Below are positions 46,500-57,977 of a DNA stretch of 64,000 nucleotides, one piece after another. Both the position numbers and the translations under genes were made by a program. The notes beneath the pieces were generated by a model that did not search any database, had not been told where the DNA came from, and was given only the letters and a program-made list of their open reading frames with translations. Numbering within the stretch: position 1 is the stretch's first letter; every line of letters starts with the position of its first letter. The DNA is taken from contig CAYPCM010000001.1 of NCBI GenBank assembly GCA_964409225.1, positions 32,173 through 96,172 of the forward strand, written 5' to 3'. Source of the DNA: an uncultured Candidatus Saccharibacteria bacterium. GTDB taxonomy: Bacteria; Patescibacteriota; Minisyncoccia; JACPXH01.

Positions 46500-46571
46500 G
46501 CGGGCGTAGTTCAGTGGTAGAACGTCTGCTTCCCAAGCAGAAGATCGCCGGTTCGAGTCCGGTCGCCCGCT
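46500..46571 (+). tRNA. tRNA-Gly (anticodon CCC)
   Basis: Cloverleaf folded by hand: acceptor GCGGGCG/CGCCCGC, D-arm GTTC…GAAC, anticodon stem TCTGC/GCAGA loop TTCCCAA, T-arm GCCGG-TTCGAGT-CCGGT; no encoded CCA. Confidence 0.8.
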
Positions 46572-46655
46572 CACTAACGCCACCGCCACCAATCCTTGTT
46601 GTGGTCACGGGGCAAGCCAGATGCGGGAGTTCGATATCAGAAATTTTAACTATTT

Positions 46656-47396
46656 ATGGAACAAGAAAACGCACCCCAAGCAATGCAAACAAAAAATAAT
46701 CTCGCAATGTCAGCCGCAGTTGTTATCGCCGGCGCACTGATTGCGGGAGCCGTGTATTGGAGCGCGCGTGGAGACAGCCTTGCTGTCGCACCACAGCCAC
46801 GGGCCGGAGCAGGAAATGCCGCCGCGCTCGATATTATGAATCCGACCGAAAACGCCGACCACATTCGCGGCAATCCGAATGCTCCGGTAAAAATAGTTGA
46901 ATATTCGGATATGGAATGTCCGTTCTGCAAACGGTTTCACTCCACGATGCAACGAGTGATGGACGAGTACGGCAAAAACGGCAAAGTAGCGTGGGTGTAC
47001 CGTCACTTTCCGCTTGACTCTATCCACTCGAAAGCCAGAACGGAAGCGGTTGCAAGCGAGTGTGCGAACGAACTTGGCGGAAACGACGCATTTTGGAAAT
47101 ATGTTGACCGCTTCTTCGAACTCACTCCGTCAAACAATCAAACGGACATTGACGTTGTGTTGCCCCAAATCGCGCGCGAAATCGGACTTGACGAAGCAGC
47201 ATTTATCTTATGTCTCACGAGTAAGAAGTACGACGGACACATTCAGGACGATCTCGACAACGCAACCGCAACCGGAGGCAACGGCACGCCGTGGAGCATC
47301 GTTGTGGCTGCGAGCGGTAAAAAATACCCGCTCTCGGGCGCGCAACCATACGCGACGGTCGGGCAGCTTATTGAGCTTGCGCTTCAAGAAAAATAA
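46656..47396 (+). CDS. DsbA-like thioredoxin-fold thiol:disulfide oxidoreductase
   Basis: Signal/TM, CPFC active site, DsbA-like helical insertion. Confidence 0.7.
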   Translation: MEQENAPQAMQTKNNLAMSAAVVIAGALIAGAVYWSARGDSLAVAPQPRAGAGNAAALDIMNPTENADHIRGNPNAPVKIVEYSDMECPFCKRFHSTMQRVMDEYGKNGKVAWVYRHFPLDSIHSKARTEAVASECANELGGNDAFWKYVDRFFELTPSNNQTDIDVVLPQIAREIGLDEAAFILCLTSKKYDGHIQDDLDNATATGGNGTPWSIVVAASGKKYPLSGAQPYATVGQLIELALQEK

Positions 47397-47488
47397 TTAT
47401 GACCCTTCAACCCTTCAACAAGTTCAGGGTCGCCCCGAGCACGGTCGAGGATCGACAATTTCAGGGTCATAGTGAGTAAAATCGAACC

Positions 47489-48052
47489 ATGAAAGAAAAT
47501 CTAAAAAATCTGCAAGTGGCGTTTGGCGAAGTGTTTGGCAACACTTCGTACATAGTGTTCGCGAGTACGCTTGCGATTGCCGCCTTCCTCTTTGCCGTCT
47601 GGCTTCCTAATTTTGGCCTCATTGGTGAAGTGTTTAGCATTTCAAGCGCGCCGCTCGCGACGAAGCTCAAGGTTGTGATTACATTACTCGGCGGTATTGG
47701 CACGAATTTCAGTTTTCTTTCCGCCGGATATACCATCGCAATTGCCGCGCTCTTTGGAATTAACTTGGCAATGATTGTCTATTTTCTGAAACGCACACGC
47801 GCTGGTCTCGGCAGACAAAATCTGGCGGCGGGCGTAGGAGGCATCGCAAGCGGCGCGCTTGGCATCGGTTGCGCCGCTTGCGGGTCGTTTATTTTGAGCA
47901 CGATACTTGCTTCGTTGGGGGCCGCTGGTGCACTCGCAATCCTGCCCCTTCGCGGCGGAGAATTTGGGATATTGAGTATTGTACTCCTTGTTCTTTCTCT
48001 CATGCTTATCAGTAAGAAAATAGCGGCGCCGCTTATTTGCAAACCTTCTTAG
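47489..48052 (+). CDS. Integral membrane protein with CAAC motif (hypothetical; possible DsbA redox partner)
   Basis: Five TM segments; GIGCAACGSF; immediately downstream of dsbA-like gene. Confidence 0.35.
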   Translation: MKENLKNLQVAFGEVFGNTSYIVFASTLAIAAFLFAVWLPNFGLIGEVFSISSAPLATKLKVVITLLGGIGTNFSFLSAGYTIAIAALFGINLAMIVYFLKRTRAGLGRQNLAAGVGGIASGALGIGCAACGSFILSTILASLGAAGALAILPLRGGEFGILSIVLLVLSLMLISKKIAAPLICKPS

Positions 48053-48651
48053 CGACTATGAACAAACAAACTGCATTCGCACTTGTCATCGTTCTAGTCT
48101 TTGTCGGCGGAGCAATTTTTCTCGGCGGCCCGCAGAAACAAAGAGAACAAGCAAACATCGGCCATGTGAACGAAGCGCTGGCCGCGAAATTTGCCGACTT
48201 GTCCCAAAGCGGCAACTCGTCTTGCTCCGCCACATTCAAAGAATCAATACTTGCCATGGCGGATGATGCGCGGCTCAAGGGTTCGTGCTGCAGTCCGATG
48301 AGCATACATCGTTACAGCGAACAAGTTGAGGGTTTAGAGAATTTTAAATCCGTTCCCGATCAAAACATTGCAGAGATTCCCGACGATCCGTATGACATTG
48401 AAGCCGGGCTCGCAAAGCGACTTATTTCGTATTACGACACAGAGCTAACCCCGGAGGAACAAGCGGCGTACGATTACGCCGTACTTAATTCGAGCGAGAA
48501 AGGCCCATGTTGCTGTAAATGCTGGCGTTGGTATGTGTACGGCGGCTTGGCAAAGTTTCTTGTTCAAAATCACGGCTTCACTGGCGAGCAAGTAACCCAA
48601 GTGTGGGATCTCTCCGATGGATGCGGCGGTGACAGCGAGCATCACCACTAA
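48037..48651 (+). CDS. Secreted Cys-rich hypothetical protein
   Basis: N-terminal TM; multiple Cys pairs (CC, CCCKC). Confidence 0.35.
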   Translation: MQTFLATMNKQTAFALVIVLVFVGGAIFLGGPQKQREQANIGHVNEALAAKFADLSQSGNSSCSATFKESILAMADDARLKGSCCSPMSIHRYSEQVEGLENFKSVPDQNIAEIPDDPYDIEAGLAKRLISYYDTELTPEEQAAYDYAVLNSSEKGPCCCKCWRWYVYGGLAKFLVQNHGFTGEQVTQVWDLSDGCGGDSEHHH

Positions 48652-48656
48652 AGATT

Positions 48657-49187
48657 ATGGAAAACGAACCGCAAATTGAGTTGAGTAAAAAAGAGCGGAA
48701 AGAATTGCGCCGCGTTGAGCGTCTTGAAGAAGAACAAAAACTTGCAAAGCAGCGGGGCCTGAAGCGTATGACGAAAATCGCGCTCGCCGTGATTATCATT
48801 GGTGGAGGCATTGGCGCTTTTGTTTGGTATCTTGCGACTCGTCCGTCCATTCCCGAAGGGGAGATTATTTCCCGACGCGGTTTGCATTGGCACCCCGCGC
48901 TTACTATTTTCGTCCAAGGAGAAAAACAAGAAATACCCGCAAATATTGGCATTGGCGCGGTGCATAATCCCGTTCATACTCATGATGCCAGCGGCGTCAT
49001 CCACCTAGAGTTTCCAGGGCTGGTTCGCGGGGACGACGTGAAGCTTGGTCGTTTCTTTGAAGTTTGGGGCAAGAACGTTATGGAATTCGGATCATCGGTT
49101 CGCATGACGGTAAACGGCGAAGAGAACGCCGAGCTTCAAAACCATCAAATGAAAGACGGCGATAAAATCGAATTGCGATATGAATAG
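48657..49187 (+). CDS. Membrane-anchored hypothetical protein
   Basis: N-terminal coiled/TM (ALAVIIIGGGIGAFVWYL). Confidence 0.35.
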   Translation: MENEPQIELSKKERKELRRVERLEEEQKLAKQRGLKRMTKIALAVIIIGGGIGAFVWYLATRPSIPEGEIISRRGLHWHPALTIFVQGEKQEIPANIGIGAVHNPVHTHDASGVIHLEFPGLVRGDDVKLGRFFEVWGKNVMEFGSSVRMTVNGEENAELQNHQMKDGDKIELRYE

Positions 49188-49285
49188 AAACGTATGGTAA
49201 AAATGTTTCACCTGTTCGGGTTTTGGAATTTTTGGTAAAATGGTTTAGAGCGAAATCTAAATACGCTTATCATTCCGCTTTTATC

Positions 49286-50131
49286 ATGCCAAGGAGGATA
49301 GTTTTTTTGGCTTTTGCGGTGGGTCTCATAGTGGGGGTGGCGTGGGAAGCGCTTGGTCTTCAGGCGTTGCCGCGCCTTGAATATCGCGTCACTCCCGAAG
49401 TGGGGGAAGAAGTGGTGGTGTCGGTGGGGCCAGGCATTCACCGCGCGCAAGCCGAGCGCGCTTTTCGGCTCTCGCCGCCGGTCCGGGGGCAGACCGAGTG
49501 GGACGAGGCCGCGCGTGCGCTGCATTTTTTCCCGCTTGACGGGTTTAAACCGGGTCAGGTTTATACATTGATTTGGTCTGGCCCGGGGTCGCTTTTGGCG
49601 CGGATAGTGCCGGAGGTGGGGGCTTCGTTTCGGGCCGAGCCGCAGCGTTTGGCCAGCTCGGTTGAGCCAGAACCAGTGTCTGCGCCAACGCCACTTCCGC
49701 CGTCTGGAGACCAGGTGCTCACCAAGCATAGCGGCGAGCGCGTGATGCTTGACCCGCCGCGGGTAAGGCGGGGCAAGTCCATAGAAATCAATCTTTCGCT
49801 GATGACTTTACAGATGTTCGAGAACGGCCAGCGCGTGGCCGCCTTTGAGACGGCGGGCAAAGGCAACCCCAAAACAACTCCCACGCCCACCGGCCGCTTC
49901 AAGATTTTGCGCAAGCGCGGGCTTATGCTTTCGAACCTTTCGTATGTCTGGATGCCGTACAGTATGCAATTTTCAGGGCCGTATTATCTGCACGGCCTGC
50001 CCTACTATCAAAACGGCCGCATGCTGACCACTCAGTATTCCGGAGGGTGTGTGCGCATGCCTAAGGGCGTGGATCAAACCGTGTATAACTGGGCTCAAGT
50101 GGGCACGGCAGTGGTAATTTCCGGAGCATGA
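49286..50131 (+). CDS. L,D-transpeptidase (YkuD family)
   Basis: Catalytic HG…S.GC.RM (HGLPYYQNGRMLTTQYSGGCVRM); N-terminal TM. Confidence 0.65.
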   Translation: MPRRIVFLAFAVGLIVGVAWEALGLQALPRLEYRVTPEVGEEVVVSVGPGIHRAQAERAFRLSPPVRGQTEWDEAARALHFFPLDGFKPGQVYTLIWSGPGSLLARIVPEVGASFRAEPQRLASSVEPEPVSAPTPLPPSGDQVLTKHSGERVMLDPPRVRRGKSIEINLSLMTLQMFENGQRVAAFETAGKGNPKTTPTPTGRFKILRKRGLMLSNLSYVWMPYSMQFSGPYYLHGLPYYQNGRMLTTQYSGGCVRMPKGVDQTVYNWAQVGTAVVISGA

Positions 50132-50529
50132 TTGTCCCCGGATTTTTGCGCTTGGCGTTCCGCCTTCACGCTGTATACTTTTTTGTGTGGGCGACTGTTT
50201 TTGATTTTTTTGTTGAGCCGTTTGGGCGCATTTTCGGACTTGAAGCGCCGCGCACCATTATCGGCTGGGTGGGAACTGGCGTGGCTTCGGGCGGTCTACT
50301 TACGGCGGGTGTGCTTTTTCTTTTGGCTTCGTTTCAGCGTAAGCTGCCGCGGTTTGTGATTGCGGTGGCGCTGGTGCAGACAACGTTCAATCTTTATCAC
50401 GACGTGGTGTGGTTTAGGGTGGGTGCGCCGATGGAGCTCGTCTTGCTCGATGCCGCCGTGATCGGTATGCTGTTCATCGCGTATCTGGCTGCGTGGCGGA
50501 TGTCGCGCGCCGCGCAAACATCGATCTAG
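50128..50529 (+). CDS. Small integral membrane protein (hypothetical)
   Basis: Four TM helices; ATGA overlap with upstream gene. Confidence 0.3.
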   Translation: MIVPGFLRLAFRLHAVYFFVWATVFDFFVEPFGRIFGLEAPRTIIGWVGTGVASGGLLTAGVLFLLASFQRKLPRFVIAVALVQTTFNLYHDVVWFRVGAPMELVLLDAAVIGMLFIAYLAAWRMSRAAQTSI

Positions 50530-50547
50530 GGCTCATTACCTATCGTT

Positions 50548-50619
50548 GCCGGAGTAGCTCAGTGGCAGAGCAGGGCTTTCGTAAAGCCAAGGTCGCGAGT
50601 TCGACTCTCGCCTCCGGCT
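50548..50619 (+). tRNA. tRNA-Thr (anticodon CGT)
   Basis: Acceptor GCCGGAG/CTCCGGC, D-arm GCTC…GAGC, anticodon loop TTCGTAA, T-arm GCGAG-TTCGACT-CTCGC; one G·A mismatch at 27:43. Confidence 0.75.
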
Positions 50620-50680
50620 CAAGGTTTGGACAACGGGGCGGCTTCCATGATTGGCCGCGGCATGCTACGATGTGTCAGCC

Positions 50681-51854
50681 ATGGAAGCCCCAATCGAAAA
50701 ACTCGCTCGTTTAGAAGCTGAAATCCGCCGCACGGCGGACCGTCTTTGACTTAGCGCAACTTAAAAAACAGATTCTAGAACTTGAGCGCGAGGCCGGCCG
50801 GCCCGACTTTTGGGGGCAGGTGGATCGAGCCCAAAAAACTCAGCAGCGCTTGGGCGAGCTTAGGGGAGAAGTGGCGTTGTGGGAGGAACTCCGGAGGGCA
50901 GCGGAGAGCTTGCGCCAAGATCACGCCGCGCTTGTGGAGCTTGATCGGGCCGACGGCAACTTGGACGAACCGGAATTCGCCGTCTTGAAATCCGATTGGG
51001 AGGCGCGACTTCATGACTTAGAGCGTCGTTTCCGCAAAGCCGAGCTGCGCGCTTTTTTGTCGGGACCGTACGATAAAAATTCAGCTCTTCTTTCTATTAA
51101 CGCCGGAGCCGGCGGCATTGATGCGCAGGATTGGGCCGAGATGCTGGCGCGGATGTATGTGCGCTACTCAGAAGGTCGGGGCTGGAAAATAACTAAGCTC
51201 GACGAATCGCGCGGCGAGGAACAGGGGATTAAGTCGGTTGCGTTTCAGGTGGAGGGCGGGTTTGCGTACGGGTACTTGAAGGGCGAAAACGGCGTGCACC
51301 GTTTGGTGCGGCAATCGCCGTTTTCAGCCAACAAGCTCCGGCACACCTCGTTTGCTCTGGTGGAAGTATTGCCGGTTTTTGCCGAAGGCGAGGCAGATAT
51401 CGAAATTAGACCCGAAGATGTTCAGGTTGATATGTTCCGTTCATCCGGGCCGGGCGGGCAAAACGTGAACAAGCGCGAAACCGCAGTTCGCATAACGCAC
51501 CTTCCCACCGGTCTGGTCGTGGCTTCGCAAGAAGAGCGTCAGCAGTCGGCCAACCGGGAATTAGCGATGGCCATGCTGCGCGCCAAACTCTTTCAACTGA
51601 TGGAGCAGGAAAAAACCAAAGAACTGGCCAAACTGAAGGGTAAACGTGTTACAATTGAATGGGGCCACCAGATTCGCTCTTACGTGCTCCATCCTTATAA
51701 AATGGTCAAGGATTTGCGAACTAACGTTGAAACGTCTCAAGCAGAGGCGGTGCTCGACGGGGTGCTGGACGAATTCATCGAAGCCGAGCTGCGGGAGGCG
51801 TCAGCTGCGCACTACGACGTGGAGAAGCGTACAAAAAAGCCCAGCCATGATTAA
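50681..51854 (+). CDS. prfB: Peptide chain release factor 2, with programmed +1 frameshift at CTT TGA C (50744..50750)
   Basis: ORF1 MEAPIEKLARLEAEIRRTADRL stops at TGA 50747; +1 frame continues through SPF and GGQ motifs. Confidence 0.85.
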
Positions 51855-52527
51855 ATTCGACAACGTCTCGAAGATTTACAACGAACACGCCGTGGCGCTG
51901 GAAGGGGTTACGCTTGAGATTCAGCCGGGCGAGTTTGTGTCAATTGTGGGGCAATCCGGCGCTGGCAAGTCCACGTTTTTGAAGCTGCTCATCGCCGAAG
52001 AAGAGCCCTCGTCTGGCCGCGTGTTTTTGGACGCAATCGACGTTCACCAGATTCCGCCGGCCAAGCTGCCAATTTTGCGCCGTAGAATCGGCAACGTGTT
52101 TCAGGATTTTAAACTGCTCACGGACCGGACCGCTTTCGAGAACGTGGCTTTTGCCATGGAGGTGGCCGGCGTGGCCGAACACGACATTCATCGTGACGTG
52201 CCCAAAGTGCTTGAGCTAGTGGGTCTTGCGGATAAAGGCGGCAATTTCCCCCGAGAACTTTCCGGCGGCGAGAAACAGCGCGTGGCGATCGCTCGCGCCT
52301 TGGCCCATCGGCCGGATATCATCATGGCTGACGAACCCACCGGCAACTTGGATCCGCTTAACACTTGGGATATCATACGGCTGCTCATGAAAATCAACGA
52401 TCTTGGCACGACCGTCATCCTCGCCACTCACGACCGCGAAATCATCAACACCATCGAGCGCAGGGTTGTAAGTTTGGACCGAGGGCGCATTGTGCGCGAT
52501 GAAGCGCGAGGAAGATATATCCTATGA
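51847..52527 (+). CDS. ftsE: Cell division ATP-binding protein FtsE
   Basis: Walker A GQSGAGKST, ABC signature LSGGEKQR, Walker B IIMADEPTGNLD. Confidence 0.85.
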   Translation: MIKFDNVSKIYNEHAVALEGVTLEIQPGEFVSIVGQSGAGKSTFLKLLIAEEEPSSGRVFLDAIDVHQIPPAKLPILRRRIGNVFQDFKLLTDRTAFENVAFAMEVAGVAEHDIHRDVPKVLELVGLADKGGNFPRELSGGEKQRVAIARALAHRPDIIMADEPTGNLDPLNTWDIIRLLMKINDLGTTVILATHDREIINTIERRVVSLDRGRIVRDEARGRYIL

Positions 52528-52567
52528 AATCCAAAATCCAAAATCCAACCCCCAAAAATTTCGGCGT

Positions 52568-53485
52568 ATGCCGATTGTAGAAACATTAAAACGCGTTGCC
52601 CGTTCGGGGCTGCAGTCGTTTCTGCGCAACGGCTGGCTTTCGACCGCGACCATAAGCGTCATGGCCCTCGCCATTTTCGTGATGACGAGTTTGGTGCTGC
52701 TCAACGTCATCACCCAATCGCTCGTCGCCAACCTTCAGGATCGCATTGATATCAGCGTGTATTTCAAGCAGGAAGCGCCTGACGGCGAAATAGCCAAGGT
52801 TCAGCGCGATCTTGAGCAGCTGACCGAAGTTAAATCGGTTGAATTCGTAACTGCCGACGAGGCCCTCGTGCGTTTCCGAGAGCGCCATCAGGACAACCCT
52901 CTGCTTCTTGAATCGCTGGAAGAATTGGGCACCAATCCTCTGCAAGCAACGCTCAACATCAAAGCGCGCGAAGCGAACCAATTCGCTTCGATTGCGAGTT
53001 TTCTTCAAGCCGAAAGGTTTCAGCCCGTCATTGATAAGGTCAACTACACCCAGAATGCCGAGGTGATAAGCCGGCTCGCCAGCATTGTTTCGGGCGTGCG
53101 GCGGGGCGGAGCCGCGCTTACGCTGGTGCTGGCCACGATTGCCATTTTGGTTTCGTTCAATACCATTCGACTCGCTATCTATACTGCGCGCGAAGAGGTT
53201 GGTGTGATGCGGCTGGTGGGCGCTTCCAACTGGTTCATCCGCGGTCCCTTTCTGGTGGCTGGCTTTGTGTATGGCGTGGCGGCAGCGGCGATCTCCATGG
53301 CCGTGTTTTTTCCGCTTGTGGGAGCTATCTCGCCGAAAGTATCCGGCTTTCTTCTCACCGGCACCAACTTGTTCGCTTACGTGCAACAGAACTTCTGGCC
53401 GCTTTTGGGCTTGGGGCTCGCGGTCGGCGTGGCGCTCGGCGTGCTTTCGAGCTACATCGCGATCCGGAGGTATTTGAAGGTGTAG
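52568..53485 (+). CDS. ftsX: Cell division permease-like protein FtsX
   Basis: TM1, large periplasmic loop, three C-terminal TM; adjacent to ftsE. Confidence 0.8.
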   Translation: MPIVETLKRVARSGLQSFLRNGWLSTATISVMALAIFVMTSLVLLNVITQSLVANLQDRIDISVYFKQEAPDGEIAKVQRDLEQLTEVKSVEFVTADEALVRFRERHQDNPLLLESLEELGTNPLQATLNIKAREANQFASIASFLQAERFQPVIDKVNYTQNAEVISRLASIVSGVRRGGAALTLVLATIAILVSFNTIRLAIYTAREEVGVMRLVGASNWFIRGPFLVAGFVYGVAAAAISMAVFFPLVGAISPKVSGFLLTGTNLFAYVQQNFWPLLGLGLAVGVALGVLSSYIAIRRYLKV

Positions 53486-53504
53486 GTTGTATATCCTGAG
53501 TTTA

Positions 53505-53545
53505 TCGCGGGCCGCGCCCGCCGTCCGGCGGGCGCGGCCCGCACT
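53505..53545 (+). terminator. GC-rich hairpin downstream of ftsX (no T-tract)
   Basis: GGGCCGCGCCCGCC-gtcc-GGCGGGCGCGGCCC. Confidence 0.35.
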
Positions 53546-53598
53546 ATTCGTCGTGGTGGTGCGGTGTGGATAATCCTCGTTGAACAATTGTACAGTGA

Positions 53599-54513
53599 GT
53601 GTATGATGGAAGTATGGCGAATAATGTGCAGTGTAAGGTATGCGGGCAATCGTTCGGCGCCGTTACGAACACTCACTTGGCGACGCACGACATCTCAGTT
53701 TCCGACTATCGGCGTCGCTACCCCGGTACGGCCGTCGGGTTTGCCTTGGTGCCGGCGCAGCTTGCGAAAGGCGATCTACGGTATCGCCGATGGCGCCGTT
53801 CGTTGCTGAAGCGGCCGCCACCTTGGAACAGAGGTCAGACAAAAGCGACGCACCCGGGTGTTGCAAGAATATCGGCTACGTTTCGGGAACGAGGCATTGA
53901 TAACTTTGTTCATTGGCGACAAAAGATGGAGGCACGGGGGCGGTTTCATCATAGCTATCCAGATTTTCCACATACAGGAGATTTGGCCGAACTGATCGGT
54001 CTTGTTCTCGGCGACGGGCACATCTGTCGATTCGCGCGCACGGAGAGTCTCGGCATAACGCTTAATAATAAGTATCAAGCCCTGATCGAACGAACCGCAA
54101 AGCTGATACAGCGCGTTTTCCATAAAAAGCCGGCTCGACTAGTGCGCCGCGATGCAAACTGTACGAGGCTGGTGCTGTATCAGAAAGACATCAGCCGCCG
54201 TTTGGGCATTCCGAATGGTAATCGAAGCCAGGCCGATAATGGTATACCGCAGTGGGTATGGCGCCACAAGCCGTTTTTGATTCGCTGCTTGCGGGGACTC
54301 TACGAAGCCGAGGGGTTTTTCTCGCAACATCTACCGACCTATACATATAAATTTTCTTTCACCAACTCAAACCCGCGCTTGCTCAACGACGTTTTCCGCG
54401 GTATAAGTACACTTGGCTTTGCGCCGCATCGGGAAGCCAGGCGCATCACAATTTCGAAGCGGGCACAGGCGTTTGCGTGTCGTACCCTCCTTCGTTTTCG
54501 CGAATACAACTAA
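53599..54513 (+). CDS. Free-standing LAGLIDADG homing-endonuclease-like protein with N-terminal C2H2 zinc finger
   Basis: CKVCGQSFGAVTNTHLATH (C-x2-C-x12-H-x3-H); LAGLIDADG motif 1 LAELIGLVLGDGH and motif 2 LRGLYEAEGFF. Confidence 0.65.
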   Translation: MYDGSMANNVQCKVCGQSFGAVTNTHLATHDISVSDYRRRYPGTAVGFALVPAQLAKGDLRYRRWRRSLLKRPPPWNRGQTKATHPGVARISATFRERGIDNFVHWRQKMEARGRFHHSYPDFPHTGDLAELIGLVLGDGHICRFARTESLGITLNNKYQALIERTAKLIQRVFHKKPARLVRRDANCTRLVLYQKDISRRLGIPNGNRSQADNGIPQWVWRHKPFLIRCLRGLYEAEGFFSQHLPTYTYKFSFTNSNPRLLNDVFRGISTLGFAPHREARRITISKRAQAFACRTLLRFREYN

Positions 54514-54518
54514 TCAAT

Positions 54519-54592
54519 TGGGAGGTCTGCTAATGGTAGGCATCATGGCTCTGAACCATGCAATGGAGGTTCGACTCCTCCCCTCCCAGCCA
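54519..54592 (+). tRNA. tRNA-Gln (anticodon CTG), CCA encoded
   Basis: Acceptor TGGGAGG/CCTCCCA (U1:A72 typical of tRNA-Gln), D-arm TGCT…GGCA, anticodon stem CATGG/CCATG loop CTCTGAA, T-arm GGAGG-TTCGACT-CCTCC, GCCA tail. Confidence 0.8.
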
Positions 54593-54657
54593 ATTTGTAA
54601 AGTTTGCGTTTTCCGCCTCGCTCGGGGCTTCGCTTGATGATTTAATGAAATAAAATT

Positions 54658-55662
54658 ATGGGAACAAAGCAATCATTATATAAAGCACACAAGATTAAGG
54701 ACGATGAGTTCTTTACTCTTTACGAGGATGTTGCTAACGAAGTTTCGCTTTATAAGAAACAACTGAAAAGGAAAAGAATTATATGTCCCTGCGATTGGGA
54801 TGAAAGTTATAACGAAGAGATTGTTTTCAAGGAAGAAGGATTTATTGGTCCGTCCAATTTATTGGACAAAGGCGGAACAATTAAAAAAATAGATATAAAA
54901 GCGTCTAAGAAAAAAATTGAAAAACCGCTAGCTTTGATTAAGTGTAATTTTGTTAAATTTTTAGTTGCTCATGCTGATGCTTATGGCATAAAGTCAATTT
55001 CTGTGAGCGGATATAATCCTGCAAACGGTAAAGGTGTTAAATTCCAAGATGTTGATTATTCAAAATATGATCTAGTTATTACGAATCCGCCGTTTAGTCA
55101 GTTTCGGGATTTCATTGAAACAATGTTTAAAAATAAGACGGATTTTTTGGTCGTCGGACCAATTACTGCCATAACATACAAGGAAATTTTCAGTCACATA
55201 AAAGACAATAAAATGTGGCTTGGTTACGCAAAACAATTATCCGGATTTCGATTGACTGATGGTACTCTTGTTCTTTCAAAAAATCCCGAAGGATCAGTGC
55301 CTCGTGCTTGTAAATGGTACACGAATTTGGATGTTGCCTATCGGCACGACAGGATGATTTTGACAGAAAACTATAGCCCCGAAAAATACCCAAAATATTA
55401 CAACTATAACGGCGTGGATGTAGAAAAAACAAATAAAATACCTTTTGATTTCGATGGTATTATGGGTGTTCCAGTTACTTTTTTAACAAAGTATAATCCA
55501 CAGCAGTTTAAGATTGTAGGAAAAGGGGTTCAGGTTGAAAAAACAGTAAGGTTCAAGGGTGATAAGGCTACGCTCTGGATTGAAAAGGACGGAAAACCTT
55601 TCAGGGCACCTTTTGAAAGAATTTTAATAAAAAATAGAGAGGTAATTAAAAATGAAAAATAA
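54658..55662 (+). CDS. Adenine-specific DNA methyltransferase, M.EcoRI-like family
   Basis: DDEFFTLYEDV…CPCDWDES, DLVITNPPF, ITYKEIFSHIKDNKMWLGY, CKWYTNLDV, YPKYYNYNGVDVEKTNKIPFDFDGIMGVPVTFLTKYNPQQF — collinear with my recollection of M.EcoRI; ~33% GC. Confidence 0.6.
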   Translation: MGTKQSLYKAHKIKDDEFFTLYEDVANEVSLYKKQLKRKRIICPCDWDESYNEEIVFKEEGFIGPSNLLDKGGTIKKIDIKASKKKIEKPLALIKCNFVKFLVAHADAYGIKSISVSGYNPANGKGVKFQDVDYSKYDLVITNPPFSQFRDFIETMFKNKTDFLVVGPITAITYKEIFSHIKDNKMWLGYAKQLSGFRLTDGTLVLSKNPEGSVPRACKWYTNLDVAYRHDRMILTENYSPEKYPKYYNYNGVDVEKTNKIPFDFDGIMGVPVTFLTKYNPQQFKIVGKGVQVEKTVRFKGDKATLWIEKDGKPFRAPFERILIKNREVIKNEK

Positions 55663-56737
55663 TATGAATATCAAAACTTTATACGAACAACTTAGGGATG
55701 GGAAAATTATCAGCGACATAGAACTCCAAAGAGAGATAGTTTATGATACCGAAAAACAAATGCTAGTTATAGACAGTATCGTTAATGGGATTCCGTTGCC
55801 TGCTTTTTATTTTTGGAAAAATGACGAAGGAATTTTGGAAGTATTGGACGGCAAACAAAGAATAGAAGCCATTAAAAAATTTATTGAAAACGACATCCAA
55901 TATCAGGATAAGTTATGGAAACAAACGGACAAAAAAATTCAAGACATAATCAATAATGCCGAGCTTTCAATCATTGTTTGTGGAGGTAAAGAACAATTAA
56001 AAAGGGAGATATTTAGAAGAATTAATACTCTGGGTGTTCCACTTTCTCCTTATGAAGTTTTGAACGGCCTTTTTCATGGCGAGTATTTAAGGGGTTTAAC
56101 TGTTTATGTCGGGCAAGATAGGGATGCACTGAAAGTTCTAAACGCCAACAGCCGAGGTAAAAATCAATATAGAATTTTGCAATTATTGATGGAATTGAAA
56201 AATTTGCCGAAAGATGCGCAGAGTATAAACGACCATGTGAATTCAAATCAGAAAAAATCTTTTGCTGATGACCAAAGGGAGGTTGGTAAATATATCAAAT
56301 TCGTCAGAGACATATTTGATGATTACGGCCAATTAGACATTTATTTTAACTTGGCGAGAAAATATTTTAAGGACGCGGTTATATGGAAACAAAACAAGGA
56401 CGAAATCAATTCTCGCGTCAAAAGATATTTAAAAAGCGATGACGCTAAATTGACGGATAAAGCAAAAGAAATAGAAGATATTATTCAAGCCATTGTAAAT
56501 AATATCAGTGTTGATGATAAAAGGTTATTTTCAAGCGATGACAAAAAGGAATTTTTGAGGAAAAAGAAGCCGAATAAAGAGAAAAAATATCAATGTGCGG
56601 ACTGCAAAAAGTATTTTTATGCCGAGGAATTAACAATGGATCATGTAGACCCGTGGAGTAAAGGCGGCAGAACCGAACTTTCAAACGCTGAACTACGATG
56701 CCGTCCTTGCAATATTAAAAAGGGCAATAGAAGTTAG
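55652..56737 (+). CDS. DUF262 (ParB/Srx-like, DGQQR-type) domain fused to C-terminal HNH nuclease
   Basis: N-terminal …LEVLDGKQRIEAI… (DUF262 DGQQR motif variant); C-terminal CADCKKY…MDHVDPWSKGG…N…CRPCNIKKGN HNH Cys4/His-Me finger; 11-nt overlap with upstream MTase gene. Confidence 0.6.
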   Translation: MKNNMNIKTLYEQLRDGKIISDIELQREIVYDTEKQMLVIDSIVNGIPLPAFYFWKNDEGILEVLDGKQRIEAIKKFIENDIQYQDKLWKQTDKKIQDIINNAELSIIVCGGKEQLKREIFRRINTLGVPLSPYEVLNGLFHGEYLRGLTVYVGQDRDALKVLNANSRGKNQYRILQLLMELKNLPKDAQSINDHVNSNQKKSFADDQREVGKYIKFVRDIFDDYGQLDIYFNLARKYFKDAVIWKQNKDEINSRVKRYLKSDDAKLTDKAKEIEDIIQAIVNNISVDDKRLFSSDDKKEFLRKKKPNKEKKYQCADCKKYFYAEELTMDHVDPWSKGGRTELSNAELRCRPCNIKKGNRS

Positions 56738-56740
56738 ATT

Positions 56741-57877
56741 ATGAATTCTAAAATTATTATCAAGGCCAATTTACCTTTTTGTTTATATAGATTAGATGAA
56801 AGATATTTTCAAATTGACCCTCAAACACGCATCCGTTTTTTAAAAGAAAAAATAGAGCCAAGCAGAAGGACAAGCTCATCAAAAAATGTTGAGTTTTTAA
56901 ATGATAGATGGGGCTGGGATGGTTTTTCTAAAGTAGAAATTGAAACAGAAAAAGAAATTGATTTAGAAAATTCAACATCGGAAAAAGCACAAAAATTTGC
57001 TATAAAAATCATTAACGAGTTCATCAATCTTTATAGATATTTTGATGAAAATGCTGTCCACTTTGTTAAACTTATAGAATCTGATTTATTAGAATTTTCT
57101 GTGGAGAAAAATGGTCATGGGATGTTTGCGATGCCGTTGCACATGACAGTTTTAGACCCTAAGAAAATTTCAGCAGTAAGTAGTAGCATAGAGAGGGCGT
57201 TAAGTGATGAATACAAAATCCCCTTATGGAGAGAACTTATACTTAATGCCGAACATTACTGTTATATCGGAGATTTTAGAATGGCAATTTTGGAAAGCGT
57301 GACTGCATTGGAATTAGTAATTTCTAGATTTATAAGTGGTGAGTTATCAGCGGCCGGTGTTCAAGAAAAAGAAATTAAAGAGTTTATTAAGGAAACTGGC
57401 GTAGCAAAGGGGCTTAATGTTGTGATTCGGCTTTTAGTAGGAAAAAGTGGAATACCGAATGAATTATTTGAAAAATGCAAAGGTACTATAACTAAACGAA
57501 ACAAGATAGTTCATGAGGGAAGAAAAGAAATAGATTATCAAAGCACTAAAGATTCCATTATCGCCATATATCAGCTTATTCAGCTTTTATTGGAAAAGGG
57601 TCGAGATATGGATGAATTAAGAGATAATTATAGACAAATTATGAAATTTGAAGAATACTTAAAAACTGTTGTACCGAAGATTGGTCCAAATGCCGCTTTT
57701 GACCTTTCAAGAGATGCACGCACAACGGCAATCGAAAACATCTTGGTGGATAAAAAAGTAGCAACAAAAGAAGAAATTGAAACTGCAGTTGAAAACGAGT
57801 TATCAAAAAGCGCCGAGAATATTTTGCGTATGCCACCCTTGCCAAAGGATGAACCTAAGGAAGCTCCGCAAAAATGA
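56741..57877 (+). CDS. Alpha-helical protein with HEPN-like Rx4H motif (putative abortive-infection/RNase component)
   Basis: …TITKRNKIVHEGRKE… (R-x4-H) in predicted helical context; 3 nt after upstream stop; AT-rich like the other two genes. Confidence 0.3.
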   Translation: MNSKIIIKANLPFCLYRLDERYFQIDPQTRIRFLKEKIEPSRRTSSSKNVEFLNDRWGWDGFSKVEIETEKEIDLENSTSEKAQKFAIKIINEFINLYRYFDENAVHFVKLIESDLLEFSVEKNGHGMFAMPLHMTVLDPKKISAVSSSIERALSDEYKIPLWRELILNAEHYCYIGDFRMAILESVTALELVISRFISGELSAAGVQEKEIKEFIKETGVAKGLNVVIRLLVGKSGIPNELFEKCKGTITKRNKIVHEGRKEIDYQSTKDSIIAIYQLIQLLLEKGRDMDELRDNYRQIMKFEEYLKTVVPKIGPNAAFDLSRDARTTAIENILVDKKVATKEEIETAVENELSKSAENILRMPPLPKDEPKEAPQK

Positions 57878-57977
57878 CCTAATGCGGCGCGCCAGCTTCG
57901 CTGGCACGAAATTCGGCGGCGGCGGAAAAAATTGTAATCGGAAAGCGAGGGCGGGCAAAAATTCCTTCCCCCCAACC

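What the first reader, a model, noticed from the sequence alone, without database searches (positions are those of the whole stretch)
53599..54592. Free-standing C2H2-zinc-finger + double-motif LAGLIDADG endonuclease-like gene abutting tRNA-Gln
LAGLIDADG enzymes are normally intron- or intein-encoded. This one is host-GC and stand-alone. It ends 5 nt before tRNA-Gln, exactly at the left edge of the AT-rich island. It may be a domesticated homing endonuclease, or it may be involved in the island's integration at the tRNA.
Basis: partly seen in the sequence, partly recalled or inferred. Interest (0 to 1): 0.5.

Follow-up and report, generated by a model that had tools for sequence, protein, structure and literature searches.

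The report
Homing-endonuclease cassette invading a tRNA-Gln gene
The gene is a real zinc-finger LAGLIDADG endonuclease, and its relatives show it belongs to an apparently undescribed lineage of selfish DNA-cutting genes in ultra-small bacteria and archaea that sit directly 5' of one specific tRNA gene; in the two best-sampled families they insert into that gene and rebuild it behind them.

Summary
An intact 299-aa ORF (ATG 53614 to 54513) has a C2H2 finger and two LAGLIDADG motifs, and both catalytic acidic residues are kept. It ends 5 nt before tRNA-Gln(CUG). The genome is a Parcubacteria (CPR) bacterium.

A role in integrating the AT-rich island is refuted. In 75 of 75 informative loci from other Patescibacteria, a homologue ends a median 4 nt before tRNA-Gln(CUG), and almost none carry the island.

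- In 62 of 78 loci, a 5' fragment of tRNA-Gln (positions 1-23) lies upstream of the ORF. An extended -10 promoter follows it, placed for a leaderless mRNA. The layout is therefore [tRNA 5' piece][promoter][ORF][complete tRNA].
- Related genomes keep ftsX-tRNA-Gln with no ORF, and the endonuclease tree conflicts strongly with its neighbouring genes.
- Sister families abut tRNA-Glu(CUC) in Pacearchaeota and tRNA-Ser in Patescibacteria.

Best reading: a homing-endonuclease cassette that targets the tRNA D-arm and restores the gene. Cleavage is untested. The window's own copy lacks a recognisable fragment.

The parts
53580..53607 (+). Promoter-like site, TTGAAC-16 nt-TATGAT, ending 6 nt before ATG 53614. 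It predicts a leaderless or near-leaderless mRNA.
   Evidence: the only + strand hit in 53300-54800. In the family, 63 of 78 loci have a hexamer matching TATAAT at 5 or more of 6 positions, ending 4-10 nt before the ATG (52 at exactly 6 nt, 52 with a TG extension). The same is true of 7.8% of random ATGs.
53614..54513 (+). LAGLIDADG endonuclease ORF (299 aa plus TAA stop); NCBI locus tag HYW67_00015, Candidatus Parcubacteria bacterium.
   Evidence: The AF2 model has pLDDT 86.7. The best Foldseek hits in PDB are I-Tsp061I, the Tli VMA intein endonuclease, I-DmoI and WhiA. The best HMM hit in PDB is I-DmoI, with the alignment spanning both LAGLIDADG motifs.
53632..53688 (+). C2H2 (Ros/MucR-type) zinc finger, residues 7-25: CKVCGQSFGAVTNTHLATH.
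   Evidence: It is present in 14 of 76 relatives (the long form) and absent from the mid form (~259 aa) and short form (~232 aa).
53821..53874 (+). Conserved linker module PWNRGQTKATHPGVARIS (residues 70-87). It is kept in all three length classes and is probably an extra DNA-binding element. The resemblance to NUMOD3 comes from memory; no Pfam hit supports it.
   Evidence: Alignment A1: W71, G74, K77, S87 and T89 are invariant. The AF2 model shows helices at 55-66, 81-93 and 99-107.
53983..54018 (+). LAGLIDADG motif 1 (LAELIGLVLGDG). D134 is the putative catalytic aspartate.
   Evidence: G133, D134 and G135 are invariant in 22 diverse homologues. The motif aligns with I-DmoI LLGLIIGDG.
54289..54315 (+). 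LAGLIDADG motif 2 (LRGLYEAEG). E233 is the putative catalytic glutamate.
   Evidence: A232, E233 and G234 are invariant. The motif aligns with I-DmoI IKGLYVAEG.
54519..54592 (+). Complete tRNA-Gln(CUG), starting 5 nt after the stop codon. No promoter-like site was found on the + strand between the ORF's own promoter and the tRNA. Its D-stem is the TGCT/GGCA variant.
   Evidence: TGCT/GGCA is one of the two commonest D-stem types among functional tRNAs of endonuclease-bearing loci.
54593..54633 (+). A 41-nt tRNA trailer shared with other Patescibacteria. It lies outside the AT-rich island and marks the island's true left border.
   Evidence: 92-95% identity to L009 and L026.

Best explanation
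The gene is a member of a lineage of LAGLIDADG homing-endonuclease cassettes that target one tRNA gene.

Shown at family level:
- The unit is [5' fragment of tRNA-Gln, positions 1-23] - [A-rich spacer plus extended -10 promoter, 6 nt before the ATG] - [endonuclease ORF] - [0-16 nt] - [complete tRNA-Gln(CUG)].
- Related genomes have the same neighbourhood with an uninterrupted tRNA and no ORF.
- The ORF's phylogeny disagrees with that of its neighbours on the same contigs.

Inferred:
1. The enzyme recognises about 20 bp of the tRNA-Gln(CUG) gene centred near position 24-25. This spans the D-loop and D-stem 3' strand through to the anticodon loop, which would explain why only the CUG isoacceptor is involved.
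2. It cuts alleles that lack the cassette.
3. Repair copies in [promoter-ORF-replacement tRNA 5' part]. The old 5' piece is left stranded upstream and the tRNA stays intact.
4. The cassette's own promoter then transcribes a leaderless mRNA that runs into the tRNA, and RNase P would separate the two.
5. Carrier alleles escape re-cutting through compensated D-stem changes (for example TGCT/GGCA in place of GTCT/GGAC).
6. Recombination between the 23-nt repeat and the tRNA can delete the cassette precisely, regenerating empty sites that can be re-invaded.

The zinc finger and the conserved linker module are taken to be accessory DNA-binding parts that shorter relatives have lost. The window copy is intact with both catalytic residues, but its upstream relic is no longer recognisable.
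For: - Fold and active site: Pfam hit above cut-off; I-DmoI-like alignment spanning both motifs, with D134 and E233 invariant in the family; confident AF2 model with LAGLIDADG enzymes as top PDB matches.
- Site specificity: 75 of 75 informative loci have tRNA-Gln(CTG) on the same strand, median gap 4 nt, with 7 overlapping the tRNA. The upstream neighbour is ftsX in about half the loci and something else in the rest.
- Relic of the invaded tRNA: a local match to tRNA-Gln positions 1-23 scores 22 or more in 62 of 78 loci, against under 0.8% of random windows. It ends mostly 20 or 30 nt before the ATG.
- The same layout occurs in the archaeal sister family.
- Own promoter.
- Empty sites: 107 metagenomic tRNA-Gln(CUG) loci have no ORF and no remnant. 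L179 has prfB-ftsE-ftsX followed 58 nt later by the tRNA. L131, L134 and L138 are also syntenic empties. These loci nest among carrier lineages (FtsE best-match identities 57-70%; L131 is the weakest case).
- Horizontal replacement: bootstrapped trees from the same contigs conflict. Housekeeping trees give (L012,L034), (L013,L059) and (L053,L057,L074,L078) 100% support, while the endonuclease tree gives them 0%. The endonuclease tree gives (L060,L078) 100%, (L025,L074) 95% and (L003,L012,L013,L032) 91%, while housekeeping gives them 0%. L012 and L034 even carry different length classes.
- Selection: dN/dS is 0.05-0.15 in six pairs, and all the ORFs examined are intact.
- Immunity signal: the GTCT/GGAC D-stem occurs in 37 of 62 relic fragments and 8 of 16 CPR-like empty alleles, but in only 11 of 76 functional tRNAs of carriers (Fisher p=0.004; p=1.5e-4 against all 107 empties). 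The relic differs from its own downstream tRNA in 52 of 57 loci.
- The largest carrier-versus-empty differences fall at tRNA positions 7, 26 and 44-45, with smaller ones at 11 and 24. Several of these lie around the junction.
- Generality: 6 of 6 Pacearchaeota contexts abut tRNA-Glu(CUC), and 5 of 5 contexts of a third Patescibacteria family abut tRNA-Ser.
Against: - No cleavage or homing has been observed, and the target site is only predicted.
- The window copy has no significant upstream tRNA fragment (score 15, within the null range).
- No near-identical cassette was found in divergent hosts. The closest discordant pair is 77% identical, so mobility is old or rare on this sample.
- Strong purifying selection and the absence of pseudogenes among the best 80 loci would fit a host function equally well. 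The 80 loci are the best-scoring of 147, which biases the sample against decayed copies.
- 11 of 76 carriers keep the supposedly sensitive D-stem.
- tRNA sequence distances track neither the endonuclease tree nor the host tree.
- The tRNA-Ser family shows no clear fragment.
- The trees are neighbour-joining trees on corrected p-distances only.
- Only 4 syntenic and about 12 further CPR-like empty sites were available, and their taxonomy is inferred rather than known.
- Counts across loci are not phylogenetically independent.
Confidence: 0.6

Rival explanations
1. The gene is a domesticated host gene. An ancient LAGLIDADG insertion upstream of tRNA-Gln became a vertically inherited operon partner. 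It could act as a WhiA-like DNA-binding regulator, or as the supplier of the tRNA's promoter. Under this reading, absences reflect gene loss in streamlined genomes.
For: - Mean pairwise identity is 54%, the same as PrfB.
- dN/dS is 0.05-0.15.
- All the ORFs examined are intact.
- The synteny tRNA-Thr-prfB-ftsE-ftsX-ORF-tRNA-Gln is widely conserved.
- Shallow clades are congruent between the two trees: L020/L021, L001/L002, L029/L041 and L044/L072.
- The upstream fragment is more conserved (91% to consensus) than a neutral relic should be.
- Some members hit the WhiA LAGLIDADG models, and WhiA is among the fold matches.
- The tRNA appears to depend on the ORF's promoter.
Against: - Both catalytic acidic residues are invariant. 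From my own knowledge, WhiA has lost them.
- There is no C-terminal WhiA HTH domain.
- Tree conflicts carry 91-100% bootstrap support.
- Close relatives carry different length classes (L012 versus L034).
- Clean empty sites nest among carriers.
- None of 107 randomly captured tRNA-Gln(CUG) loci carries the gene, so it is not a core gene.
- The endonuclease diverges faster than its neighbours between close relatives: 68% identity against 87-92% for L044/L072.
Confidence: 0.22
2. The gene is an inert passenger: a once-mobile endonuclease gene, now fixed and non-functional in this genome. It would be retained only because deleting it removes the promoter of tRNA-Gln(CUG).
For: - The window copy lacks a recognisable upstream tRNA fragment.
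- No + strand promoter-like site lies between the ORF promoter and the tRNA.
- In T4, promoters embedded in endonuclease genes are argued to favour their retention (PMC2988022).
Against: - The ORF is full length with all invariant family residues, including D134 and E233.
- Family-wide purifying selection would not be expected if only the DNA, and not the protein, mattered.
Confidence: 0.12
3. The gene mediates integration of the AT-rich restriction-modification island at tRNA-Gln.
For: Physical proximity only. L049 and L065 also have an EcoRI-like methylase plus a GmrSD/HNH pair 2-3 kb downstream of their tRNA-Gln.
Against: - The gene-tRNA pair is conserved in 75 of 75 loci, nearly all without any such island.
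- The island starts 41 nt beyond the tRNA.
- The island has no att-like repeat of the tRNA.
- The endonuclease lies on the 5' side of the tRNA and the island on the 3' side.
Confidence: 0.02

Closest known systems
I-DmoI / I-Tsp061I (archaeal rRNA-intron-encoded monomeric LAGLIDADG homing endonucleases)
   Same: A single chain with two LAGLIDADG motifs. The alignment to I-DmoI spans both motifs, where Asp (motif 1) and Glu (motif 2) are invariant in this family. These are the best sequence and fold matches among solved structures.
   Different: This gene is not inside an intron. It has about 120 extra N-terminal residues (zinc finger plus a conserved linker module). It carries its own promoter. 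Its presumed target is a tRNA gene rather than rDNA.
Phage T4 SegB (free-standing GIY-YIG homing endonuclease in the tRNA gene cluster)
   Same: A free-standing endonuclease gene lodged among tRNA genes. It cuts the cassette-free tRNA region of a relative and is co-inherited with the tRNA genes (PMC2988022).
   Different: It belongs to a different nuclease family and occurs in a phage, not a cellular genome. It lies between two tRNA genes rather than inside one. No duplicated tRNA segment is involved.
Mitochondrial mobile ORF elements that carry a replacement end of the invaded gene (for example the Allomyces atp6 element; from my own knowledge, Paquin, Laforest & Lang 1994, not checked here)
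   Same: The same logic: the endonuclease gene travels with a copy of the displaced part of its target. The target stays functional and a stranded gene fragment is left behind.
   Different: In that case the target is a protein-coding gene, the 3' end is replaced, and the ORF is fused in frame to the host gene. Here the 5' part of a tRNA gene is replaced and a promoter is supplied.
tRNA-targeting integrative elements (tyrosine-integrase prophages and islands)
   Same: They insert into a tRNA gene and restore it with an element-borne copy of the displaced segment, leaving a partial tRNA repeat at the other end.
   Different: Those elements use a recombinase, target the 3' half of the tRNA and carry many genes. 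This cassette is about 0.8-1 kb, has no recombinase, and the duplication covers the 5' 23 nt.
HO endonuclease of yeast (F-SceII)
   Same: A free-standing LAGLIDADG enzyme with an added zinc-finger DNA-binding domain.
   Different: From my own knowledge, HO derives from an intein, keeps Hint remnants, has C-terminal fingers and serves a host function (mating-type switching). Here the finger is N-terminal and Ros/MucR-like, no Hint domain was detected, and no host function is evident.
WhiA (bacterial transcription factor with a degenerate LAGLIDADG fold)
   Same: It shares the two-domain LAGLIDADG fold. Some family members hit the WhiA Pfam models weakly, and JGI names two of them WhiA.
   Different: There is no C-terminal WhiA HTH domain. 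The catalytic Asp and Glu are kept here. Distribution is patchy rather than universal.

Membership tests
LAGLIDADG homing endonucleases | Two-fold alpha-beta-beta-alpha-beta-beta-alpha core (a monomer with two LAGLIDADG helices) | tested here: met
   PF14528 scores above its cut-off. The AF2 model (pLDDT 86.7) shows H122-134/E/E/H/E/E and H219-233/E/E/H/E/E. The top Foldseek hits are all LAGLIDADG enzymes.
LAGLIDADG homing endonucleases | A conserved acidic residue at the end of each LAGLIDADG helix (metal binding and catalysis) | tested here: met
   D134 (in GDG) and E233 (in AEG) are invariant in 22 diverse homologues. They align with the I-DmoI GDG and AEG motifs.
LAGLIDADG homing endonucleases | Site-specific double-strand cleavage of a long (about 20 bp) target in alleles lacking the gene | not testable with these tools
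   Only a predicted target is available: the tRNA-Gln(CUG) gene around positions 12-36. It is inferred from the fragment/cassette junction.
LAGLIDADG homing endonucleases | Residence in a self-splicing intron or an intein | tested here: not met
   Rfam finds only the tRNA. No Hint or intein domain was found. The tRNA is uninterrupted. Free-standing members of the family are known, so this feature is typical rather than obligatory.
Homing (selfish) genetic elements in general | Presence/absence polymorphism at one conserved genomic site | tested here: met
   75 of 75 carrier loci sit at tRNA-Gln(CUG). Empty syntenic sites are L179, L131, L134 and L138. No remnants were found in 107 empty loci.
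Homing (selfish) genetic elements in general | Phylogeny discordant with the host or flanking genes (horizontal transmission) | tested here: met
   Bootstrapped NJ trees from the same contigs give several conflicts at 91-100% versus 0% support. The weak distance correlation agrees: rho 0.19-0.24 against 0.44-0.70 among housekeeping genes. No maximum-likelihood test was done.
Homing (selfish) genetic elements in general | Degenerate copies as part of the gain-decay-loss cycle | tested here: not met
   All ORFs in the 80 best loci are intact. The sample is biased because it is the best-scoring 80 of 147.
WhiA | C-terminal WhiA helix-turn-helix domain (PF02650) plus loss of the catalytic acidic residues | tested here: not met
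   No PF02650 hit in any of 22 members. The acidic residues are invariant.
Ros/MucR-type C2H2 zinc finger | C-x2-C...H-x3-5-H motif matching PF05443 | tested here: inconclusive
   The window protein scores E=0.0075, 16.8 bits, below the cut-off of 25.4. However, 13 of 22 relatives match, best E 9.6e-8, and the Cys/His spacing is conserved.

The most novel reading that the evidence does not exclude
This is a third strategy for homing endonucleases, beside introns and inteins. A compact promoter-bearing cassette inserts into the D-arm region of a tRNA gene in CPR bacteria and DPANN archaea. It brings a replacement tRNA 5' segment, is expressed as a leaderless mRNA fused to the tRNA, and is released by RNase P. 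Sister lineages are specialised on tRNA-Gln(CUG), tRNA-Glu(CUC) and tRNA-Ser. Compensated D-stem variants, and possibly archaeal tRNA introns at the same spot, would act as host or cassette immunity.
Probability: 0.4. Interest if true: 0.85.

Novelty: new variant of a known kind. Interest (0 to 1): 0.7.

Why it matters
If correct, this shows that homing endonucleases can parasitise tRNA genes in cellular genomes without needing an intron or intein. They would rebuild the target and supply its promoter instead.

- It offers a concrete selective agent for the rapid turnover of tRNA-Gln D-stem alleles seen here.
- It bears on the old idea that introns and splits in archaeal tRNA genes protect against invaders.
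- It documents what may be gene flow of a selfish element between, or in parallel within, the ultra-small CPR bacteria and DPANN archaea.
- It provides hundreds of natural, small (about 230 aa) monomeric LAGLIDADG scaffolds with guessable targets, which is useful for meganuclease engineering.

For the window itself, it explains an odd 'hypothetical protein' and separates it from the neighbouring defence island.

Tried and rejected
- Island-integration role: rejected.
- Known RNA element downstream of the tRNA, or an intron: Rfam finds only tRNAs, plus one unrelated SAM riboswitch.
- Endonuclease remnants in empty sites: none found by tblastn or by six-frame HMM search.
- Whether the functional tRNA's 5' or 3' part follows the endonuclease tree or the host tree: no correlation with either (rho about 0), so this was uninformative.
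- Phage carriage: one weak partial hit in IMG/VR, so no evidence for it.
- Other paralogues of the sister families in the window or in held loci: none.
- A tRNA-5' fragment upstream of the window's own ORF: not significant (score 15). 'TTCGTCGTGGTGGTGCGG' at about 53546 is too degenerate to call.
- A tRNA-Ser fragment upstream of the third family: not found.
- A separate tRNA promoter in the conserved C-terminal codons (TTTAGAAAATATTAA): considered, but the hexamers are poor or too close to the tRNA 5' end, and the window has none.
- Literature: six full-text searches found no description of LAGLIDADG genes abutting tRNA genes in CPR or DPANN. The known CPR cases are rRNA-intron LAGLIDADGs (PMC11270868) and HNH genes in tRNA-Asn introns (bioRxiv 10.1101/2025.07.03.662931).
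Full report
**1. What is in the window**

The + strand carries an ORF from 53599 (GTG) to 54513. The probable start is ATG 53614 (299 aa). A TTGAAC-16 nt-TATGAT promoter-like site ends 6 nt before it, and homologues begin at the same place.

- Pfam LAGLIDADG_3 matches above its curated cut-off (E=7e-7).
- The N-terminus has C7-x2-C10-x10-H21-x3-H25. This is a weak Ros/MucR match in the window protein but a clear one in relatives (13 of 22 members, best E 9.6e-8).
- The two LAGLIDADG motifs are LAELIGLVLGDG (124-135) and LRGLYEAEG (226-234). D134 and E233 are invariant across 22 diverse homologues. The profile alignment to I-DmoI spans both motifs.
- An AlphaFold model (pLDDT 86.7) shows two alpha-beta-beta-alpha-beta-beta units. 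Its best PDB matches are I-Tsp061I, the Tli VMA intein endonuclease, I-DmoI and WhiA.
- tRNA-Gln(CUG) lies at 54519-54592, 5 nt after the stop codon.
- ORF GC is 0.539, similar to the host. The island at about 54634-57900 has GC 0.342.
- The exact protein is NCBI HYW67_00015 from a Candidatus Parcubacteria bacterium.

**2. The island is a separate matter**

The AT-rich stretch encodes an EcoRI-like adenine methylase, a GmrSD_N+HNH nuclease and a 378-aa protein with no Pfam match. It has no integrase and no repeat of the tRNA end. It starts 41 nt beyond the tRNA, and those 41 nt are shared with L009 and L026.

**3. The gene-tRNA pair is conserved without the island**

- A profile scan of one genome per GTDB species found relatives in at least 147 Patescibacteria species, of which 80 loci were returned.
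- In all 75 loci where the contig continues, tRNA-Gln(CTG) follows on the same strand.
- The gap from the stop codon to the tRNA has a median of 4 nt. In 67 loci it is 0-16 nt, and in 7 the ORF runs into the tRNA.
- When the ORF overlaps by 15 nt, its stop codon is T13-A14-A15 of the tRNA.
- The upstream neighbour is ftsX in about half the loci and a different gene in the rest. In L013 and L044, prfB-ftsEX lies inverted downstream.
- The constant unit is therefore ORF plus tRNA-Gln(CUG).
- Only L049 and L065 have a distant methylase+GmrSD pair downstream.

**4. The ORF sits inside a former tRNA-Gln gene**

I printed the 70 nt upstream of each start codon. They show a 5' fragment of tRNA-Gln with consensus TGCGGGATCGTCTAATGGTAGGA (positions 1-23, sometimes only 8-23).

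- A local alignment scores 22 or more in 62 of 78 loci, against under 0.8% of random 150-nt windows from the same loci.
- The fragment ends at preferred distances of 20 or 30 nt before the ATG. In a smaller group the distance is about 10 nt, and there the tRNA's TGGTA runs straight into TAAT to form TGgTATAAT.
- An A-rich spacer and a -10 hexamer follow. In 63 of 78 loci a hexamer matching TATAAT at 5 or more of 6 positions ends 4-10 nt before the ATG (52 at exactly 6 nt, 52 with a TG extension). The same holds for 7.8% of random ATGs. This predicts a leaderless mRNA.
- Upstream of many fragments there is a further -10-like box at the distance seen for ordinary tRNA genes (visible). This looks like the ghost of the original tRNA promoter.

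The architecture is [old tRNA 5' piece][promoter][ORF][complete tRNA]. No tRNA 3' piece follows the complete tRNA as a rule. The mobile insert is therefore best described as promoter + ORF + replacement tRNA 5' part, joined at about tRNA position 23-25.

The window's own copy has the promoter. It has no statistically recognisable fragment (score 15).

**5. Evidence for mobility**

*Empty sites.* A pattern scan for the tRNA-Gln(CUG) anticodon and T arms in metagenome contigs returned 120 loci. Of these, 107 have tRNA-Gln(CTG). None has the ORF, and none has any remnant in a six-frame HMM search.
- Four keep the Parcubacteria-type synteny. In L179, prfB-ftsE-ftsX ends 58 nt before the tRNA. L131, L134 and L138 are similar.
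- Their FtsE, FtsX and PrfB are as close to carrier loci (FtsE best matches 57-70%) as carriers are to each other (FtsE mean 59%), so they nest among carriers.

*Tree conflict.* For 37 loci with PrfB, FtsE, FtsX and the endonuclease on one contig, bootstrapped NJ trees conflict.
- Housekeeping genes give (L012,L034), (L013,L059) and (L053,L057,L074,L078) 100% support. The endonuclease tree gives these 0%.
- The endonuclease tree gives (L060,L078) 100%, (L025,L074) 95% and (L003,L012,L013,L032) 91%. The housekeeping tree gives these 0%.
- L012 and L034 are 79-82% identical in FtsE and PrfB, but only 49% identical in the endonuclease, and they carry different length classes.
- Shallow pairs are congruent, so transmission is mostly vertical with occasional replacement.

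*Selection.* dN/dS is 0.05-0.15 in six pairs, so the protein is under selection.

**6. A possible immunity mechanism**

- The relic fragments mostly carry the D-stem 5' strand GTCT (37 of 62).
- Full GTCT/GGAC stems occur in 8 of 16 CPR-like empty alleles and in 43 of 107 of all empty alleles.
- They occur in only 11 of 76 functional tRNAs of carriers. These mostly have compensated variants (TGCT/GGCA as in the window, GGCT/GGCC, GTGT/GCAC, ATCT/GGAT, TTCT/GGAA).
- Fisher p is 0.004 against the CPR-like empties and 1.5e-4 against all empties.
- The relic differs from its own downstream tRNA in 52 of 57 loci. It is closer to the family consensus (91%) than to that tRNA (78%).
- Position by position, the largest carrier-versus-empty differences are at tRNA positions 7, 26 and 44-45, with smaller ones at 11 and 24. 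Several of these lie around the junction.

This fits a target centred on the D-stem 3' strand, with carrier alleles protected by central-base changes. The counts are not phylogenetically independent, and 11 carriers are exceptions.

**7. The phenomenon is wider than this family**

An exhaustive profile search found 4084 related proteins (1176 with E<1e-10).
- *Pacearchaeota/Nanoarchaeota.* The nearest other family is about 304 aa, with an HTH-like N-terminus and motif 2 LRGLIDTDGS. In 6 of 6 contexts its ORF overlaps the first 15 nt of tRNA-Glu(CUC), and the stop codon is the tRNA's T13-A14-G15. This count treats L203/L204 and L209/L212 as one context each. For L201 and L224 the Glu(CUC) identity was read by eye from an intron-containing tRNA; for L205 only the Rfam tRNA call was made, the anticodon was not examined, and the ORF overlaps that tRNA by about 62 nt. 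Some of these tRNAs contain introns.
- A tRNA-Glu 5' fragment followed by a BRE/TATA-like AAAAGATTTAAATA lies upstream of the archaeal ORF. It is clear in L203/L204, weaker in L209/L212, and degenerate by eye in L201, L205 and L224.
- *Patescibacteria, third family.* These proteins are about 333 aa (HTH plus LAGLIDADG). In 5 of 5 contexts the gene lies directly 5' of tRNA-Ser: four GCU and one UGA, with gaps of 8-55 nt or an overlap. No clear fragment was seen there.

**8. Interpretation**

The best-supported reading is a homing-endonuclease cassette specific for the tRNA-Gln(CUG) gene.

- *Shown:* fold and active-site residues; strict site association; relic plus promoter architecture; empty sites; tree conflict; purifying selection.
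- *Inferred:* the cut site; repair-mediated copying; co-transcription with RNase P release; D-stem immunity; precise loss through the 23-nt repeat.

From my own knowledge, CPR bacteria are widely predicted to take up DNA, which would provide a route for donor alleles.

The main rival is domestication. It is favoured by conservation and the absence of pseudogenes. It is disfavoured by the retained catalytic residues, the patchy distribution and the tree conflicts.

**9. Comparison with what is known**

The closest analogues are:
- I-DmoI-type enzymes (same protein family, but intronic);
- T4 SegB (a free-standing endonuclease in a tRNA cluster; PMC2988022);
- mitochondrial mobile ORFs that carry a replacement gene end (my own knowledge);
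- integrase-type islands that restore a tRNA 3' end;
- HO endonuclease;
- WhiA.

Six literature searches found no description of this arrangement. Reported CPR homing endonucleases are rRNA-intron LAGLIDADGs (PMC11270868) and HNH genes in tRNA-Asn introns (bioRxiv 10.1101/2025.07.03.662931).

**10. Verdict**

The island hypothesis is refuted. 'Domesticated' is possible but is not the best fit.

The finding leads to what appears to be an undescribed variant of homing element. It is a new variant of a known kind, with interest 0.7. Confidence in the mechanism is 0.6, pending cleavage assays.

Noticed in passing
window 54634-57900: An AT-rich (GC 0.34) three-gene cassette: an EcoRI-like adenine methyltransferase (54658-55662), a GmrSD_N+HNH nuclease (55652-56737, overlapping the methylase by 11 nt) and a 378-aa protein with no Pfam match (56741-57877). 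There is no integrase and no tRNA-derived direct repeat. It is probably a laterally acquired restriction/defence module.
   Followed up: partly
L049 8565-10733; L065 4485-6702: Distant homologues (27-36% identity) of the same methylase+GmrSD/HNH pair lie 2-3 kb downstream of tRNA-Gln in two other Patescibacteria. The 3' side of this tRNA may be a recurrent landing site for such modules.
   Followed up: no
window 54593-54633; L009, L026, L037, L062, L076 downstream of tRNA-Gln: A G+C-rich repetitive trailer (…GCGTTTTCCGCCTCGCTCGGGGCTTCGC…) is shared at 92-95% identity between the window, L009 and L026. Related CGCTTCGGC / GGGGGTTCGAGCC motifs occur in other loci. These could be small repeated elements or partial tRNA T-arm copies.
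   Followed up: no
L201 3901-4070; L205 3404-3574; L224 2419-2616: The archaeal tRNA-Glu(CUC) genes abutted by the sister endonuclease often contain long introns. In L224 one appears to interrupt the D-arm region, close to the presumed cassette junction. This could bear on the idea that tRNA introns protect against invaders.
   Followed up: no
L201 3868-3882; L203 3868-3882: A TATA-box-like CATTTAAAAAGAT lies inside the 3' end of the archaeal endonuclease ORF, about 24-31 nt before the tRNA-Glu start. It encodes the conserved ...KHLKR... tail. In archaea the tRNA may therefore keep a promoter embedded in the ORF.
   Followed up: no
L209 1972-2046: In one Pacearchaeota context a tRNA-Gln(CTG) lies about 450 nt upstream of the endonuclease gene that abuts tRNA-Glu(CTC).
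   Followed up: no
window 46500-53485 and loci L001-L080: The order tRNA-Gly(CCC) - tRNA-Thr(CGT) - prfB - ftsE - ftsX - (endonuclease) - tRNA-Gln(CUG) is conserved across many Patescibacteria. The prfB ORF here starts with GTG, and tblastn matches to it in other loci often cover only about 240-270 of its 344 residues. This may reflect the usual RF2 frameshift; I did not examine it.
   Followed up: no
L213, L215, L220, L222 (about 2200-2500 or 850-1500): The tRNA-Ser-associated endonuclease family is always preceded by a ComF-like phosphoribosyltransferase gene and a divergently oriented pilM. Its start region (…TTAGAATGGAAGTATGGC…) closely resembles the window's (…TATGATGGAAGTATGGC…).
   Followed up: no
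35 carrier loci (tRNA-Gln genes): Sequence distances between the functional tRNA-Gln(CUG) genes show essentially no correlation with host housekeeping distances (rho about 0.05). Close relatives (FtsE 85-90% identical) have different D-stems, which is unusually fast turnover for a tRNA.
   Followed up: partly
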